Assembly: GCA_049287045.1 (NCBI GenBank)
Contig: JBAQFC010000010.1
Coordinates: forward strand, 14,179 to 78,178
DNA: 64,000 nt
Origin: Minisyncoccia bacterium
GTDB taxonomy: Bacteria > Patescibacteriota > Minisyncoccia > Phycocordibacterales > UBA9973
Direction of reading: 5' to 3'
The notes below the pieces were generated by a model, which made no database searches, was not told where the DNA came from, and saw only the letters and a program-made list of their open reading frames with translations. The first letter of the stretch is position 1. Each line of letters begins with the position of its first letter. The position numbers and the translations under genes were made by a program. This document shows positions 23,553 through 46,935 of the stretch, one piece after another.

Positions 23553-26378
23553 TTATTCTTCTTTATTGGCTTCAAATTCTTCTTTTTCCTCTCTTAATCT
23601 TCTTACATAGTCTTCATCACTTCTCGCTATATCTATATCCAAGTGCTTGATTTCTTTCTTGCAGAATTTCTTTACTCTTTTATTTTTAGTTTTTTGCATT
23701 TCCTCGTTAAGGCTATTTCTTAAAGCTCTTAAAGCATTTCCATGAATATTATCCTCAGGGCTTCCTGATAAAACTCCTGTGCTTCTCATTCTACCACCTA
23801 CCGTATTCCAAATTTCTTTATTATCTGTAGCAGCAACTATTTTGAAACAAATATCAAAATTAGGTGTTTCAATAAGAGGAAAAAGAGATAAGACCTTTTT
23901 TAGGTTTATTTCTTTTTCGCTGGCAACAAGTTCTTCTAATACTTGGGTAAGTGCATTACCACCAATTTCATGAATAAGTTTTCCTAAGTCCATGGCATAT
24001 AAATCTCTACGCTCATTTACCTTAGAAATCCAAGTTTTTAACACTTTAGGATATTTCGGGTGGTCTTTAATCAAATCAGCAATATCAGTTGAAAAATGAT
24101 ATGGGAATGCAATGTATCTTGTTTCAGGTTGTTGTGCTTCTCTGTTTAGTCGTCTGCTATAGATAGACATCATCAATTCAAAATCCACCTTACCAATTCC
24201 GTTAATAACTTGTTCGTGATTATAGTCTAACTCTTGTGCTTCAACTGCTAAATCAGCCAACTCTTTGAGTTCTTCTGGTGTCCAATCTGAAAGTTCTATC
24301 CACTTAAAATGAACAGCTGTACCAATGTGGTCAAAAAAAGACTTTTCAAACTTAGGCTGACTTTTCATTTGCTCTAATAGTAATTTTCTGAAAACTTTAG
24401 GGTTAGATTCATAGAGATATGTAATGCATCTTCCAATTTGGTATTGAAGCCTTGAGTTTTCTTTATCTAGGAAAGAGAAATTATTTTGAGCCTTAGAAAT
24501 ATCAACAATTAAAGCAATGTCTTCTTTTCTTATATTTAAATCATCTCGTTTTCTCATTTCAAAGGATTGGAGTAGTTGAATGGTCAATTCAATTGATTTA
24601 TCTCTTTTAGCTTGGTTTGCATATTTATCCCATAGAGAGAGTGAACTGATTCTCAAGCCAAAGATAAAACTTCCTGCAAATAAATAAAGATCGCTTTTGT
24701 CTTTGTATATTTTCTGAAGAAATTTGTCTGTTAATTTTGGTTTACTTTTTCCTATTCTTGCCAAAAAATCACGGAATATATTAAAATGCCAATCCTCGGT
24801 ATTGTCCTTAAAAATACTTATCTTTTCCAATGTCTTGCACCATGAGTCAAGATTTTTTTCATTTATAGACTCTAAGTTACCTTTAATTTTTTCCTCTCTT
24901 TCTTTTTCTACAACATTATAGTCAGCGTCAATTCTTAAACGGTGTGGCTCTCCTACAAAGAGTCTATAAAGACTATAGTCATTTTTTGATGAACGCAGAG
25001 TTTGTAAAAGTTTTTCGTGGCCAGGTATAATACGCTTCCAAACTTTAAGCAAAGCAAGTTGACACTCTACTTCATAAACTACAGGAAAAGAATCTATAGG
25101 GTTTCCTTTTGGGTTAAGTACAATTTTTTTATATTTTCCAATAATATACTTTGCCTCTTCATCAAGCATAGAACGGAAAGCATCCTCTGCGTCACTGTCA
25201 GCAAATCCATGGTCTGGTAAATGAAAGACCCTTGAAAGACTCTTCAGGGCTTGAATTTTATTAGGGAAATTACTGCTATGTTGAATTATTTCTAATAGCA
25301 AATTAATTGAATCTTTTCTTATTTTCATTAGATACGGGGTAGCTTGAAGTGCTCCTATGTGAAAAGTGATTGTTCTCATATCCGGATTTGAAGTACCTTC
25401 AAAATCAGGTTCTAGGAGGTTTCCAAGAATCACTACTACCAAGTTTTCTATTTTTTCATCTCTCAAAGATAAAGGCTGCTCCAGAGAATCAAAGAGTATT
25501 CTTTGGGGTCCATACCCTATAGAATTCAGAACGTGGAAATTGTATTTAGAAATAGAAAGTATAACCTTTTTTGCTTGTTCCCTTATCGTTTCTTCTTTGT
25601 CCATAAGAAAGATAAAAAGGGCTTCAATAACTTTTTGTGTTTCTTGATAAGTAATTTTTTCTAAAAGTTTAATATAAGAAGATTTAGAGTCAGTATCTCC
25701 GTACTGTCTTATCTCGTTTGCAATTGAAAAAGCCAAATCTATTAATGGGAATCTTCCAGTATTTGTTCTGTAAAAAACTAATTGCTCTAGTGTTGCTAAT
25801 CTTTCCGCAGCTATGCGTTCTTGAGGAGTGCCTTTGCCAAGATCTTTAAGATATTTAGAGATTATTTTATCGTTAGATTCATTTCTGTGATGGAGGCAAA
25901 TCTTTTTCCACTCCTTGGGGTAATTTTTTTCTGTCTGGGTTATTTTGTTCTTTTCAATGAAATATATTGAAATAGTATGACTTGGAATTTGCTCCTTTTC
26001 TGCTAAGTAATTATTAATAAACTCAGGAGACAAATACGCCCAATAAGCTAGATTTTTATTGGGGTCAACCCCAATAAGTAAAACTGGTGTTGAAGAATCA
26101 TGAGCGTGCGCTAAAAGAGTTGGTTTGCATGTTGTGAATGGTTTCCCATTTTTAGTATATAAAAGTGGCTTTACTTGGACTTGTAGGGATAAACCAGACA
26201 TCTCCCTAGAATCTGTTAATAAGTGAAAATAGCCATCAATATTAGGAAAGTCATCATCTCCACCAGTAATCTGAGATATTACAGAATCATTCAGTAATAT
26301 TTCTAAAACAGCATTTTCTTTCTTCTCAATGCTTTTACTTTTGGAATATTTAGCTTTTCTTAAAATTTGCTTAGCCAT
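23553..26378 (-). CDS. Large (941 aa) protein with an N-terminal DUF4365 / PD-(D/E)xK-like nuclease-fold domain and a C-terminal alpha-helical repeat region
   Basis: N-terminal DFPNIDGYFHLL...LQVQVK...LLIGVDPNKNLAYWAYL matches the DUF4365 pattern (D.GiDg ... QvK ... yw). No Walker A motif. The remaining ~750 aa are helical and repetitive. Confidence 0.5.
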   Translation of the reverse strand: MAKQILRKAKYSKSKSIEKKENAVLEILLNDSVISQITGGDDDFPNIDGYFHLLTDSREMSGLSLQVQVKPLLYTKNGKPFTTCKPTLLAHAHDSSTPVLLIGVDPNKNLAYWAYLSPEFINNYLAEKEQIPSHTISIYFIEKNKITQTEKNYPKEWKKICLHHRNESNDKIISKYLKDLGKGTPQERIAAERLATLEQLVFYRTNTGRFPLIDLAFSIANEIRQYGDTDSKSSYIKLLEKITYQETQKVIEALFIFLMDKEETIREQAKKVILSISKYNFHVLNSIGYGPQRILFDSLEQPLSLRDEKIENLVVVILGNLLEPDFEGTSNPDMRTITFHIGALQATPYLMKIRKDSINLLLEIIQHSSNFPNKIQALKSLSRVFHLPDHGFADSDAEDAFRSMLDEEAKYIIGKYKKIVLNPKGNPIDSFPVVYEVECQLALLKVWKRIIPGHEKLLQTLRSSKNDYSLYRLFVGEPHRLRIDADYNVVEKEREEKIKGNLESINEKNLDSWCKTLEKISIFKDNTEDWHFNIFRDFLARIGKSKPKLTDKFLQKIYKDKSDLYLFAGSFIFGLRISSLSLWDKYANQAKRDKSIELTIQLLQSFEMRKRDDLNIRKEDIALIVDISKAQNNFSFLDKENSRLQYQIGRCITYLYESNPKVFRKLLLEQMKSQPKFEKSFFDHIGTAVHFKWIELSDWTPEELKELADLAVEAQELDYNHEQVINGIGKVDFELMMSIYSRRLNREAQQPETRYIAFPYHFSTDIADLIKDHPKYPKVLKTWISKVNERRDLYAMDLGKLIHEIGGNALTQVLEELVASEKEINLKKVLSLFPLIETPNFDICFKIVAATDNKEIWNTVGGRMRSTGVLSGSPEDNIHGNALRALRNSLNEEMQKTKNKRVKKFCKKEIKHLDIDIARSDEDYVRRLREEKEEFEANKEE

Positions 26379-42181: not shown

Positions 42182-43083
42182 TTTTTTAATTTAAAGAAAA
42201 TGAAGGTAGCAATGCTTGTCAAAAACATTCCACCTAATATCATATAAAATTCAACAAAAGTTCTTATAAGAGGGAATTCCGTGTTCATCATAAAAATACT
42301 TGCGAGTAATGTTGCTGGTGCAATGATGAAAGTCATTATAGTGAGTATTCTCATTGTCTCATTTGTTTTAGATGAAAGTAGTGAATCGTTTGTCTCACGT
42401 AAGTCTGTCAAAACATCTTTTTCATTATCCAAAATATTTTTTATTTTATTGTATTCACTGATGATAGATTCAAGATAAAAAGCGAATTCTGGGTCAAAAA
42501 ATTTTTTACCAACTGACTCGAAAGATTTTAGAGTCTCATAATGGAAACGTAATGATTGTCTATAACTAAGAAGATGTCTATTTAAATTTGAAATTGTTTT
42601 TACTGTTTCTTTTTCTCTACCTTCAAATATGTTGTGTTCTATTTTCTTTAGATCAGGATTAATAGTGTCGAGCTCAGTTATCACATTTTTGTAAAGTTGT
42701 TTAATTACGCTGTAAAAGAGATGCCCAGCATGATTGCCTACATTGTGTTTATCAAGTAAAGCATCCATTTCGAATTTTTTGGAAAATTCATGCAACGGGT
42801 TTATTAATTCATAATGTATTGTTATTAAAAAATTCTTTCCAATAACGAAGTCTATTTCTTGTTCAGTTTTGTAATTTTTAAGATGGCGATTGACCGGGAA
42901 ATGAAGAACTAGAAAGATTAAATCCTTATAAAGGTCTACTTTTGACCGAACTGTCTCAGAAATGAACTCTTCAGCCATTAATGTAGGAAGAGAGAATTCT
43001 TCTACTAAGTGTGAAACTTCTTCTGGTGTAGGAGACTGTAAATCAACCCAAGTAATATTATTAAAACTATATTTTGAAATCAT
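42172..43083 (-). CDS. CorA-like divalent cation transporter
   Basis: Two C-terminal TM helices with MMNTEF, a variant of GMN, and a long cytoplasmic N-terminal domain. Confidence 0.55.
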   Translation of the reverse strand: MISKYSFNNITWVDLQSPTPEEVSHLVEEFSLPTLMAEEFISETVRSKVDLYKDLIFLVLHFPVNRHLKNYKTEQEIDFVIGKNFLITIHYELINPLHEFSKKFEMDALLDKHNVGNHAGHLFYSVIKQLYKNVITELDTINPDLKKIEHNIFEGREKETVKTISNLNRHLLSYRQSLRFHYETLKSFESVGKKFFDPEFAFYLESIISEYNKIKNILDNEKDVLTDLRETNDSLLSSKTNETMRILTIMTFIIAPATLLASIFMMNTEFPLIRTFVEFYMILGGMFLTSIATFIFFKLKKWL

Positions 43084-43143
43084 ATAAATAGATTATAGCA
43101 AAGATGCTTGCATTTTTACAAGGTTTCGTATAATATAGAACTT

Positions 43144-43461
43144 ATGGAATTTGCAGTTATACAAACAGGCGGAAAACAATACAAAGTCTCAACAGGAGAT
43201 CTTTTTTCTACTGAGAAAATAAAGGGCGAATATAAGAAAGGGGACAAAGTTTCTTTTGATAAAGTTCTTTTAGTTGATGACGGAAAAGATACAACTATTG
43301 GTACTCCTTATATCACTGGTGCGAAAGTTGATGCTGAACTTATCGAAATCGGCCGCACACGAAAAGTTATGGTTATCAAGTACAAACAAAAGTCCCGCTA
43401 CCTACGCCGAAATGGACACAGACAGCCTTATTTCAAATTTAAAATACTTTCTATAAGCTAA
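43144..43461 (+). CDS. rplU: 50S ribosomal protein L21 (bL21)
   Basis: MEFAVIQTGGKQYKV..GD is the canonical bL21 N-terminus. Terminator at 43463-43495. Confidence 0.85.
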   Translation: MEFAVIQTGGKQYKVSTGDLFSTEKIKGEYKKGDKVSFDKVLLVDDGKDTTIGTPYITGAKVDAELIEIGRTRKVMVIKYKQKSRYLRRNGHRQPYFKFKILSIS

Positions 43462-43462
43462 A

Positions 43463-43495
43463 CAAAAAAAATCCACCTATACGGTGGATTTTTTT
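43463..43495 (+). terminator. Intrinsic terminator of rplU
   Basis: aaaaaaaatccacctatacggtggatttttttg. Confidence 0.6.
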
Positions 43496-43674
43496 GTTTG
43501 CTTTATATTTATTTCTAAGTTATATTAAATATAATTGTTCTTTATCTAGACCTTGTCCGCATCGCACGAGTCATCCGTGGGTTTTTAAAAGAGCAACACC
43601 TCACTTGAAATATAGTGAGGTTTTTTTATTTAAATTTTTAACCTCGATTTTTCAATGCGTTTTTTAGTGTTTCA

Positions 43675-44400
43675 TTGTAACTACATAGGAGTTTCCTATG
43701 TACACAGGAAACTCCTATGTATTCTCTTTTTCATTAAAATTCAGCCATTCAAATAATTCCTTTTTATGATCATCAGGTTTTTTAAAATAAGAAGGAAACT
43801 GTAACGGATTTAGTATTTTAAATTTATTCTCACTATATTCTTTTATACTTGAATATGGATATTCAAAAATATATTTTAATAATTCGGAAATTGATTTAGT
43901 TCTTTTTTCTTTCCAATTTTTATCTATAAGTTTTGCAGGATTTAAATGTATGTATGAATATATGTATTTTAAATAATTGTCTGTATTAATGTGAGTTGAT
44001 TTATATACACCTTCGTATAATTTTCCAGTTCGAGTATATTTTTTATTGAAATACATAGAATATCCCGTAAGTAATTTACGCATATATGTAGAAATACCAC
44101 TTTCTATTTTTTCGCGTACAAGTATGTGAAAATGATTTGGCATAAGACAAAAGGCACCAATATCAACAATTGTTTCTTTTCGATCAAAAAATTCACCAAC
44201 ATTTCTTAAAGCTATACTTTTTTCAGTGTTGCAAATATACATTAAGAATAAAAAATGTTGATAATCTTGTTTATCTAAAAAGATTAGTCTTTTTTCTGTG
44301 CCACGATTATATAAATGATAATACTCATCAATAGCAAAAGACTGTTTTCGTAAAGCCATAGTTTAAGTATAACATACATAGGAGACTCCTATGTATTGAC
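43675..44400 (-). mobile_element. IS200/IS605-family-like element (tnpA only) with subterminal palindromic hairpins at both ends
   Basis: Left end ctacataggagtttcctatgtacacaggaaactcctatgta, right end acatacataggagactcctatgtat. These flank a HUH Y1 transposase gene. Confidence 0.55.
43715..44359 (-). CDS. tnpA: HUH-motif Y1 tyrosine transposase (IS200-like / RAYT-like)
   Basis: YHLYNRG near the N-terminus, HUH motif FCLMPNHFHILV, and Tyr-containing YIYSYIHLNPAK. Confidence 0.6.
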   Translation of the reverse strand: MALRKQSFAIDEYYHLYNRGTEKRLIFLDKQDYQHFLFLMYICNTEKSIALRNVGEFFDRKETIVDIGAFCLMPNHFHILVREKIESGISTYMRKLLTGYSMYFNKKYTRTGKLYEGVYKSTHINTDNYLKYIYSYIHLNPAKLIDKNWKEKRTKSISELLKYIFEYPYSSIKEYSENKFKILNPLQFPSYFKKPDDHKKELFEWLNFNEKENT

Positions 44401-44521
44401 AAATATACATAAATATGATAAACTTTGTTTAGTTCTTTCTGTACAGAAAGATTGCCATGTGGCTCCAGAGTAGTCTTTATTCTCTGTAATATATAAAGAG
44501 TTCTTTAAATAACATCGTACG

Positions 44522-44860
44522 ATGAAAAACACAATTCAAATTTTAAGTGGTCCTTCAAGAGAAGAACTATTTGATGGTTTACGTCTTTTTTTTGAAAAGA
44601 GAACTGTAAATTTTACTGTAGAAAATGATAATGGAAGATCTAAAAGAGGTTTACCAACTATTATTCAATGTATTGAACCAGAAGATGGAAGTGGAGATTC
44701 TTGGAATATTAGATTTAATATTCCAACTGAGGATTTATTACGTCTTGATTATAGTTTTTTTCCTGATAATTTTTATGACTCTCATGTAAACAAAAAAATG
44801 GTAGGTGTAAAAGCTTATTATTCAACAAAAAGTAGAGTAGGAACAATAACTATTGAATAA
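44522..44860 (+). CDS. Hypothetical protein (112 aa) carried next to the IS200-like element
   Basis: ORF with a downstream terminator (44881-44905). No recognisable domain. Confidence 0.35.
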   Translation: MKNTIQILSGPSREELFDGLRLFFEKRTVNFTVENDNGRSKRGLPTIIQCIEPEDGSGDSWNIRFNIPTEDLLRLDYSFFPDNFYDSHVNKKMVGVKAYYSTKSRVGTITIE

Positions 44861-44917
44861 AGTTTCTAATCATCCAAAAAGACCCTCACAAATGTGGGGG
44901 CTTTTTTATTTAAATTT

Positions 44918-45535
44918 TTAACTTCTATTTTTTAAAGCATTCTTTAGAGTTTCATTATCAGAGTATTCAAGTTCTGTACCGGTGGAAAGACCACGACCTA
45001 AGGATGAAATTTTTATTGATAGGGAATCTGTAATATCTTTTAATTGTTCTCTTACGTAATAATCAGTATGGTCTCCTTGGGGACTTAAAGAAAAGGCGAG
45101 TATTACTTCCTTTAGACCTTTATTGGTATTCTCTTTAATTTTTTCTATAAGCTCATTTATTCGTATTCTAGTTTTAGTATTTTTTTCAACGATCGGTACA
45201 AGTCCACCCAAGACAAAATATTTTCCGTGATAGGTACGACTTTTTTTTATACTTTCCAAATCAGAATCTTTTTCAACTATCATCAGGGTTGAGATGTCTG
45301 TCGAAGAGTCACTACAGATATCACAGAGCTTGTCTTTATTTGAGTTAAAAATATAAAATCTAAAACATTCTTTACATTGAGAGACTTCTCTTTTTAATTC
45401 AGTAATCAAACTAGATAAATTATCTGTGTAGCTTGTACTACGAGACATAAGAAAATAAACAAAACGTTTCGCTTGTCTTTCACCGATACCAGGGAATTCC
45501 TTAAAATATTCTGTTAATTTTTCTATTGGATCCAT
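44918..45535 (-). CDS. recR: Recombination protein RecR
   Basis: HhH N-terminus, C4 zinc finger CKECFRF...CDICSD, and a Toprim domain. Confidence 0.85.
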   Translation of the reverse strand: MDPIEKLTEYFKEFPGIGERQAKRFVYFLMSRSTSYTDNLSSLITELKREVSQCKECFRFYIFNSNKDKLCDICSDSSTDISTLMIVEKDSDLESIKKSRTYHGKYFVLGGLVPIVEKNTKTRIRINELIEKIKENTNKGLKEVILAFSLSPQGDHTDYYVREQLKDITDSLSIKISSLGRGLSTGTELEYSDNETLKNALKNRS

Positions 45536-45543
45536 TGTGTATA

Positions 45544-46935
45544 TTAAAACTCACTCAAACTATTTCCATTTTTAGGTGGAGAGAATTCACTCATGTCGCT
45601 TCTTTCAAGGTTTAGGAACGTTGTAGTTTTTTCATCGAAATAAAGATCTACTTTTCCGACTGGACCATTTCTGTGTTTTTCAATCAATATTTCTGCTATG
45701 TTTGTCTTTTCAGATTCTTCTTTACCTCGGTCTTCGCGGTGAATAAACATAACGACATCTGCATCTTGTTCGATAGATCCTGAGTCACGAAGGTCTGAAA
45801 GTCTTGGTTTTCCTCCTCTGGATTCTACGGCACGAGAAAGCTGAGAAAGAGCTAATACAGGCACATTAAGCTCTTTTGCCAACGCCTTGAGAGATCTAGA
45901 AATTTCAGTAACTTGATTGACCATTGAATCATGATTTTTGGAAGTAGTCATAAGCTGCAAGTAATCCACAACAATAAGATCCAAACCTTTTTCGGCTTTG
46001 ATTCTTCGAGCGAGTGATTTCATTCTGACAATAGAGTTACCAGCTTGATCATCGATATACATTTTTGCTTTTGAAAGTTTGTCTAAAGAATCACGTAGTT
46101 GTGCAAAATCTTTATCGGAAGATAAATTTCCAGTACGCAAATTCCATGCATTCACTCTTGATTGAGCGGAAAGCATTCTATCAACTAATTGTTGAGAGGA
46201 CATTTCTAGAGAAAATATCAAAATAGATTTTTCATGATTTACTGCTGCTAGACGTGCGATATCCAAAGCTAGTGTAGTCTTACCCATAGAAGGCCGAGCA
46301 GCAAGAATTATTAAATCTTGATTTTGAAGACCAGAAAGAAGACCATCTAAATCTCTAAAGCCTGTAGGCAGTCCACGAAGCATACCTTTTGTCTCATGTA
46401 ATTTTTCTAATCTTTCATAAGCTTCTGGTAACTCATCTTTCAAACTAACAAATTTTTGACTTTTTGGAGAAGAAACAACACTAAACATTCTTTTTTCTGC
46501 CATGTCTAAAATATCATCCATGTGGTCGTCGCCTTCTTCAAAAGCAAGTTCAGAAACATAATCAGCAGCTTCAATCAGACTTCTTAAGACAAATTTTTTT
46601 TGAACTATATCGGCATAATGTTTTGCGTTTGTAGAAGAGGGAACTGTATTTACTATATCAGCTAGATATTGATTGCCTCCGATATTGTCAATTAATTTTT
46701 GTTCACCTAATTTTGTAGAAAGTGAAAGCATGTCTATCGGTTCATTTTTTGAAGATAGATCGAGCATCGCATTAAAAATAATTTTATGTTTTTCAGCGTA
46801 AAAAGAATCCGGATTAATCGTGTCTTCTATTTCATGCATTGCTTCTTTGCGGAGCATAATAGAACCGAGAACTGCTTTTTCAGACTCGATATGTTGTGGT
46901 GGAATGCGTATTTCATTTTTTCTTGTTTTTATCAT
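45544..46935 (-). CDS. dnaB: Replicative DNA helicase DnaB
   Basis: N-terminal DnaB domain PQHIESEKAVLGSIM, Walker A ARPSMGKTTLAL, and a RecA-like C-terminal domain. Confidence 0.9.
   Translation of the reverse strand: MIKTRKNEIRIPPQHIESEKAVLGSIMLRKEAMHEIEDTINPDSFYAEKHKIIFNAMLDLSSKNEPIDMLSLSTKLGEQKLIDNIGGNQYLADIVNTVPSSTNAKHYADIVQKKFVLRSLIEAADYVSELAFEEGDDHMDDILDMAEKRMFSVVSSPKSQKFVSLKDELPEAYERLEKLHETKGMLRGLPTGFRDLDGLLSGLQNQDLIILAARPSMGKTTLALDIARLAAVNHEKSILIFSLEMSSQQLVDRMLSAQSRVNAWNLRTGNLSSDKDFAQLRDSLDKLSKAKMYIDDQAGNSIVRMKSLARRIKAEKGLDLIVVDYLQLMTTSKNHDSMVNQVTEISRSLKALAKELNVPVLALSQLSRAVESRGGKPRLSDLRDSGSIEQDADVVMFIHREDRGKEESEKTNIAEILIEKHRNGPVGKVDLYFDEKTTTFLNLERSDMSEFSPPKNGNSLSEF

What the first reader, a model, noticed from the sequence alone, without database searches (positions are those of the whole stretch)
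43598..44956. A 1.28-kb insertion (IS200-like tnpA plus cargo ORF) bracketed by a ~76-bp duplication of the recR 3' end and terminator
43598-43676 and 44881-44956 are about 80% identical. Both carry a terminator hairpin (cctcac...gtgagg / ccctcac...gtggggg), TTTTTTATTTAAATTTTTAAC, and the last ~12 codons of recR on the minus strand. The left copy still encodes NETLKNALKNRG*, compared with recR's NETLKNALKNRS*. Between them lie the HUH transposase element with CATAGGAG...CTCCTATG hairpins at both ends and a 112-aa ORF. IS200/IS605 elements normally insert without target duplication. This looks like a different insertion or duplication mechanism, or a composite element that captured the recR terminus.
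Basis: seen in the sequence. Interest (0 to 1): 0.55.

Follow-up and report, generated by a model that had tools for sequence, protein, structure and literature searches.

The report
RAYT islet with displaced recR end
A small accessory gene block, carrying a REP-type (RAYT) hairpin-cutting enzyme gene and one cargo gene, sits between recR and rplU of a Patescibacteria genome and is bracketed by the working end of recR and a pushed-aside older copy of that end; this scar recurs in relatives and shows how these tiny genomes take up DNA without breaking a neighbouring gene.

Summary
Two independent assemblies reproduce it exactly.

The "IS200-like tnpA" is better described as a RAYT-type Y1 HUH gene. 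Across 72 related loci it is flanked on both sides by a lineage-specific palindrome (xxxxAGG-N5-CCTxxxx). Its best fold match is the E. coli RAYT-REP complex.

The recR|rplU convergent spacer is about 45 bp in the empty state. About half of 75 related species carry unrelated accessory genes there.

Displaced but intact recR ends also occur beside cassettes that lack the transposase. Displaced ends of other genes (lysS and others) abut RAYT palindromes at other loci.

Differences between working and displaced copies are 41 synonymous to 7 non-synonymous. This excludes a target-site duplication that simply decayed in place. The region is a recombination mosaic: against the closest relative, dS is 0 for the cargo gene and 0.8-1.5 for the RAYT.

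Best reading (confidence 0.45): recombination was anchored by homology in recR on one side. On the other side the palindrome was joined inside the resident recR end. It is not canonical peel-and-paste transposition, and the enzymology is unresolved.

I rate it a new variant of a known kind, of moderate interest.

The parts
43144..43461 (+). rplU (ribosomal protein L21), the right-hand anchor gene of the conserved dnaB-recR | rplU-...-cysS arrangement
   Evidence: Pfam Ribosomal_L21p, E=9e-34. Synteny holds in 75 species.
43465..43495 (.). Bidirectional terminator (A7-CCACC...GGTGG-T7). This is the original recR|rplU terminator, and in the empty site of L178 it is the only element between the two genes.
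   Evidence: Terminator scan, both strands. L178 empty site reads recR stop, 20-nt A-rich spacer, CCACCGTTAGGTGG, rplU stop.
43537..43587 (.). Conserved block of about 48 nt, function unknown. It lies between the displaced recR end and the rplU terminator and is shared with L004.
   Evidence: Alignment with L004. No Rfam or tRNA hit.
43598..43621 (.). Terminator hairpin T0 (CCTCAC...GTGAGG), which belongs to the displaced recR end
   Evidence: Terminator scan. Orthologous hairpin in L004.
43638..43676 (-). Displaced former recR end, the left repeat copy: the last 12 codons plus stop, reading NETLKNALKNRG*. It is not part of any long ORF. The full repeat runs 43619-43676 and continues, more diverged, through T0.
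   Evidence: It matches L004's recR end at 37 of 42 positions against 33 of 42 for the window's own recR end. The G ending is shared with islet-free relatives L172, L178 and L179.
43682..43721 (.). Double RAYT-cognate palindrome (two 19-nt units; 16-bp stem). It overlaps the RAYT stop codon, and its foot lies 5 nt (GTTAC) from the displaced recR end.
   Evidence: The same palindrome type flanks the gene in 51 of 72 homologous loci.
43715..44359 (-). RAYT-type Y1 HUH gene (214 aa), with the HUH motif NHFH and invariant tyrosines
   Evidence: Pfam Y1_Tnp. NCBIfam best hit REP_Tyr_transpos, 38 bits, below the cut-off of 80. Invariant H76, H78, Y129, Y132, Y134 and Y136. AF2 model has its best PDB match in 4er8_A, E=1.4e-5. 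dN/dS 0.06 against L004.
44374..44396 (.). Single RAYT-cognate palindrome, ending 14 nt upstream of the RAYT start codon
44396..44521 (+). Promoter (TTGACA-17-TAAACT) and a conserved leader of about 95 nt for ORF112; the leader is a candidate cis-regulatory RNA
   Evidence: Promoter scan. The leader is conserved upstream of homologs only 43-57% identical, with 3 compensatory pairs.
44522..44860 (+). ORF112, a cargo gene of unknown function
   Evidence: No hit in Pfam, NCBIfam, PHROGs or PADLOC. 42 homologs found in Patescibacteria; the three sampled sit at recR with a solo palindrome (L171) or in unrelated contexts (L174, L176).
44456..44865 (.). A 410-bp tract 100% identical to relative L004, inside a region that is otherwise about 85-95% identical. 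This indicates recent recombinational exchange of the ORF112 segment.
   Evidence: dS = 0
44883..44900 (.). Terminator hairpin T1 (CCCTCAC...GTGGGGG), serving ORF112 and recR
44899..44956 (-). Right repeat copy: the working 3' end of recR (NETLKNALKNRS*) plus a 19-nt spacer
44918..45535 (-). recR. Its last third has dS 0.94 against L004, compared with about 0.40 for the first two thirds.
   Evidence: Pfam RecR/Toprim domains; dS by thirds

Best explanation
What it is. A 1.28-kb accessory islet lies in what is, in the empty state, a ~45-bp convergent spacer between recR and rplU. The islet holds two units:
- a RAYT-type Y1 HUH gene flanked by its own cognate palindromes;
- a divergently transcribed small gene (ORF112) with a conserved structured leader and its own terminator.
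The islet is bracketed by two versions of 'last 12-13 codons of recR + A-rich spacer + terminator'. The right version is the working end of recR. The left version is a former recR end that was pushed downstream and is no longer translated.

How it arose (inferred). It arose by recombination, not by canonical IS200/IS605 peel-and-paste.
1. On the recR side, the incoming or rearranging DNA was resolved by homology inside recR. It therefore supplied a recR end and terminator of its own.
2. On the other side, the DNA ended at the RAYT palindrome.
3. That end was joined illegitimately about 42 nt upstream of the resident recR stop.
4. The resident end and its terminator therefore remain behind the palindrome.

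The palindrome would act as the break or join point. This could happen through nicking by the RAYT enzyme or through hairpin-stalled replication and template switching.

Later homologous exchanges between related lineages reshuffled segments. ORF112 was swapped recently, and the recR last third and the RAYT allele were replaced.

Shown:
- the anatomy;
- the empty site and many alternative fillings;
- recurrence of displaced gene ends abutting palindromes;
- coding-type divergence between the copies;
- the recombination mosaic.

Inferred:
- the order of events;
- the one-sided homology plus palindrome-end join;
- any catalytic role of the RAYT.
For: 1. Empty and filled sites.
- L178 has recR stop, 20-nt spacer, one terminator, rplU stop.
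- L172/L173 have a 150-nt gap with a solo AGG-N5-CCT palindrome.
- Of 75 species with conserved dnaB-recR|rplU synteny, 38 have gaps of 13-131 bp and 37 have 0.24-2.9 kb of unrelated accessory genes.

2. The displaced copy looks like the resident end.
- It ends in G, like islet-free relatives, and matches L004's recR end at 37 of 42 positions against 33 of 42 for the window's own end.
- Read directly, the window's working end is the most derived of five alleles.

3. Copies diverged as coding sequence. Across 10 copy pairs there are 41 synonymous and 7 non-synonymous differences. P=1e-10 against 'working copy constrained, displaced copy neutral'.

4. Mosaic. dS against L004:
- corA 0.19, cysS 0.27, rplU 0.30;
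- recR first two thirds about 0.40, last third 0.94;
- RAYT 0.78, middle third 1.48;
- ORF112 0.00, with a 410-bp identical run.

5. The palindrome defines the junction. The displaced gene end starts 0-8 nt from a cognate palindrome foot in the window (5 nt), L013, L151 (lysS), L112, L093 and L171.

6. Specificity.
- Among 739 ORFs, internal 90-nt control segments gave 0 duplicates.
- In the 64-kb window only recR has a displaced end.
- At peptide level there were 7 hits among 899 ORFs, all at recR or RAYT loci.

7. The palindromes are cognate sites. Upstream and downstream palindromes share a 10-mer in 51 of 72 loci while differing between lineages. The best fold match is the RAYT-REP complex 4er8.
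Against: - L004, the closest relative, has the same islet but no significant displaced copy (42 of 500 shuffles reach its score). Either erosion or an independent event must be assumed.
- The spacer between the palindrome foot and the displaced end varies in length and sequence (GTTAC, ACT, T). That argues against a fixed enzymatic cleavage site.
- Cassettes without a RAYT show the same scar: PaaX-like units, a toxin-antitoxin pair in L047, and a 34-nt hairpin-only insert in L082. A RAYT role is therefore not required.
- The two L047 cassettes join at the same recR nucleotide behind a shared AATTCARAC motif. This looks more site-specific than illegitimate.
- The synonymous pattern is equally produced if the duplication arose in place and the working recR end was later replaced by homologous recombination.
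- No donor genome was identified.
- Only about 5-8 of roughly 80 RAYT loci show such repeats.
Confidence: 0.45

Rival explanations
1. Integrative cassette with an attachment site in the recR end. A circular form of the islet carries a recR-end-like module (attP-like, restoring the gene end). It integrates by a single crossover, site-specific or RecA-dependent Campbell type, within the roughly 60-95-nt homology. The homology is thereby duplicated. Cassettes can then accumulate in tandem.
For: - The direct repeats are exactly the gene end plus spacer (plus terminator), as at tRNA or gene-3'-end integration sites.
- L047 has three recR-end copies separating two cassettes. Both displaced copies start at the same nucleotide and are preceded by AATTCARAC.
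- Start points cluster at about codon -8 (L018, L022, L082) and about codons -12 to -14 (window, L037, L047).
- A 21-nt identical core lies inside the window repeat.
- Near-identical repeats in L112, 75 of 76 nt.
Against: - No tyrosine or serine recombinase lies in the islet or in any of the 76 gap ORFs clustered (Pfam was run on 10 representative families only).
- Repeat lengths vary from 15 to about 95 nt.
- A 21-nt identical run is not unusual at this level of identity (my estimate, P about 0.1).
- No circular junction has been observed.
- The palindrome-abutting junction is not predicted by this model.
Confidence: 0.2
2. In-place duplication at insertion. A long, variable target duplication was made when the palindrome-bounded unit inserted. 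This could occur by staggered RAYT nicks or by fork stalling at the terminator and palindrome hairpins, with template switching that re-enters upstream. The working recR end was later overwritten by homologous recombination with a diverged allele.
For: - Young repeats are almost identical (L112 75 of 76; L013 14 of 15).
- The repeat often ends right after a terminator hairpin, and the insert ends at a palindrome (window, L112, L047 c1/c3, L171).
- recR's last third shows clear allelic replacement (dS 0.94 against about 0.40).
- The mechanism works for non-RAYT, hairpin-bearing cassettes.
Against: - It requires a second event (allelic replacement) in nearly every diverged case to explain 41 synonymous against 7 non-synonymous differences.
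- In L151 the two terminators are unrelated, so the repeat does not end at a shared hairpin.
- No known Y1 HUH enzyme makes target duplications (established knowledge of IS200/IS605).
Confidence: 0.22
3. Ordinary IS200/IS605 peel-and-paste insertion, with the flanking similarity arising by chance or from two similar A/T-rich terminators.
For: - The gene has a Y1_Tnp domain and subterminal hairpins.
- The sequence context is A/T-rich.
Against: - The repeat scores z=24-29 against shuffles and preserves 12 codons and the stop of recR.
- It recurs in other lineages and at other genes.
- No conserved target tetranucleotide precedes the junctions.
- No second copy of the element exists in the 64 kb.
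Confidence: 0.03

Closest known systems
RAYT / REP systems (REP-associated tyrosine transposases, e.g. E. coli TnpA_REP, PDB 4ER8; Nunvar 2010, Ton-Hoang 2012, Bertels 2017 PMC5581495)
   Same: - Y1 HUH fold, with the best structural match to 4er8 and the best NCBIfam hit REP_Tyr_transpos.
- One copy in the window, under strong purifying selection.
- Flanked on both sides by lineage-specific cognate palindromes, mostly inverted.
- Solo and doublet copies of such palindromes sit at gene ends as terminators in relatives.
   Different: - The NCBIfam score is far below the family cut-off (38 against 80).
- The protein is about 210 aa, with a C-terminal extension.
- No cognate copies beyond the flanks were seen in this 64-kb window.
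- Palindromes overlap the gene's promoter region and stop codon.
- To my knowledge, association with cargo genes and with displaced ends of neighbouring genes is not described for RAYTs.
IS200/IS605 insertion sequences (IS200, IS608, ISDra2)
   Same: Y1 HUH enzyme. Subterminal hairpins on both sides of the gene. The hairpin-to-hairpin span (715 bp here; IS200 is about 700 bp by my recollection) is similar to IS200.
   Different: - Those elements insert 3' of a fixed tetra- or pentanucleotide without any duplication and are usually multi-copy.
- Here there is no conserved target motif, no second copy, and long (15-95 nt) flanking repeats of a neighbouring gene end.
Genomic islands, CIMEs and tycheposon-type arrays that integrate into the 3' end of a tRNA or protein gene and restore it
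   Same: - Direct repeats made of the gene's 3' end.
- The gene stays intact and the old end is displaced.
- The copies differ as alleles of different lineages.
- Tandem accretion is seen in L047.
- The site is a hotspot with diverse cargo.
   Different: - No integrase was seen in or beside the cassettes.
- Cassettes are only 0.03-3 kb.
- Repeat boundaries are variable.
- One boundary is a palindrome rather than an att arm.
Homology-facilitated illegitimate recombination during natural transformation (Acinetobacter, S. pneumoniae; summarised in PMC3240628) and REP sequences as join points of duplications (Salmonella, from memory)
   Same: One junction is resolved by homology in a conserved anchor gene and the other is joined illegitimately. 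Mosaic tracts of foreign alleles surround the insertion. A hairpin or REP lies at the join.
   Different: - As I recall it, the classical process usually deletes recipient DNA rather than duplicating it.
- Competence and transformation are not shown for this organism.
- Clustering of the join points is tighter than expected for random illegitimate joins.

Membership tests
RAYT (REP-associated tyrosine transposase) | Y1 HUH catalytic core: HUH motif plus catalytic tyrosine | tested here: met
   NHFH at residues 75-78. H76, H78, Y129, Y132, Y134 and Y136 are invariant in 42 homologs. Pfam Y1_Tnp E=1e-8.
RAYT (REP-associated tyrosine transposase) | Reaches the curated family model (NCBIfam NF047646 equivalog cut-off) | tested here: not met
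   Best hit, but 38.4 bits against a cut-off of 80. No sequence-level PDB hit at E<=1.
RAYT (REP-associated tyrosine transposase) | Fold closest to the solved RAYT-REP complex rather than to IS TnpA | tested here: met
   4er8_A ranks first: E=1.4e-5, TM 0.58 normalised to target. ISDra2, IS608 and IS200 follow at E>=1.4e-3. Model pLDDT is only 70.
RAYT (REP-associated tyrosine transposase) | Gene flanked by its cognate palindromes (REPs) | tested here: met
   Upstream and downstream palindromes share a 10-mer in 51 of 72 loci and differ between lineages; the common core is AGG-N4-6-CCT.
RAYT (REP-associated tyrosine transposase) | Cognate palindromes dispersed in the genome (REP/REPIN population) | tested here: inconclusive
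   No further CATAGGAG-type palindrome in the 64-kb window. Two other AGG-N5-CCT palindromes lie inside a CDS. Solo or doublet copies occur in relatives: 20 in 638 kb against 1 in shuffled sequence. Whole genomes were not available.
RAYT (REP-associated tyrosine transposase) | Single copy per genome, vertically inherited | not testable with these tools
   Only 64 kb of the genome is visible, with one copy in it. Position varies between species: present in 5 of 81 recR gaps and in other contexts elsewhere.
IS200/IS605 insertion sequence | Insertion 3' of a conserved tetra- or pentanucleotide, without target duplication | tested here: not met
   Flanking repeats of 15-95 nt in the window, L013, L093, L112 and L151. 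No shared motif precedes the junctions.
IS200/IS605 insertion sequence | Multiple near-identical copies in a genome | tested here: inconclusive
   One copy in 64 kb; the rest of the genome was not seen.
Site-specific integrative element (att-flanked island or cassette) | Direct repeats of the target gene's 3' end that keep the gene intact | tested here: met
Site-specific integrative element (att-flanked island or cassette) | A tyrosine or serine recombinase encoded in or acting on the element | tested here: not met
   The islet encodes only the Y1 gene and ORF112. No integrase was seen among the 76 gap ORFs clustered or the 10 representative families put through Pfam. A trans-acting host enzyme was not examined.
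Transposition target-site duplication | Fixed length, identical at birth, then neutral decay of the non-functional copy | tested here: not met
   Lengths range from 15 to about 95 nt. There are 41 synonymous against 7 non-synonymous differences, P=1e-10 against the in-place model.

The most novel reading that the evidence does not exclude
In Patescibacteria, RAYT-type Y1 enzymes would not be immobile 'domesticated' genes. They would be the engines of small cargo-carrying elements. One end of such an element is the cognate palindrome. The other end lies inside the neighbouring gene, so the element carries a surrogate 3' end and terminator and can enter essential-gene ends in extremely compact genomes without harm. 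This would be an HUH-driven, gene-end-restoring integration mode with long apparent 'target duplications'.
Probability: 0.15. Interest if true: 0.8.

Novelty: new variant of a known kind. Interest (0 to 1): 0.5.

Why it matters
RAYTs are usually treated as single-copy, domesticated genes whose only known products are REP/REPIN repeats. Y1 HUH transposition is textbook duplication-free. Here, RAYT units with cargo repeatedly sit next to displaced but intact ends of neighbouring genes.

The same scar marks a hotspot that holds different accessory genes in about half of the related species. This gives a concrete, sequence-level picture of how ultra-compact CPR genomes, with spacers of 13-60 bp, gain and swap accessory genes without damaging flanking essential genes.

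It also offers testable junction sequences for deciding whether hairpins or RAYT enzymes, integrases, or plain recombination do the work.

Tried and rejected
- Rfam at E<=5 over 43000-45600 gave only sub-threshold leader, sRNA and miRNA matches, nothing credible. ARAGORN found no tRNA or tmRNA.
- A PDB sequence search with the Y1 protein gave no hit. PHROGs and PADLOC gave no hit for either ORF.
- The extra ACATAGGAG at 25352 is not a palindrome and lies in a CDS, so it is a chance match.
- I suspected a short repeat (A-run plus terminator) around L004's islet. It is not significant: 42 of 500 shuffles reach its score.
- I looked for a conserved target tetranucleotide 5' of both repeat copies, as IS608 has TTAC. 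None was found.
- I asked whether RAYT orientation relative to the duplicated gene is fixed. It is on the same strand in all 5 recR-site cases, but L093 has the opposite arrangement. The strand-specific model therefore has no support.
- I checked whether ORF112 travels with the RAYT. Two distant homologs (L174, L176) sit in unrelated contexts without it.
- The motif GTTCTTTATCTAGAMC from the conserved 48-nt block occurs outside this lineage only in L095, in the other orientation. This is uninformative.
- L150 and L153 (1.1-kb contigs) have repeats around the RAYT, but the repeats are not at the contig ends, so they give no evidence of circles.
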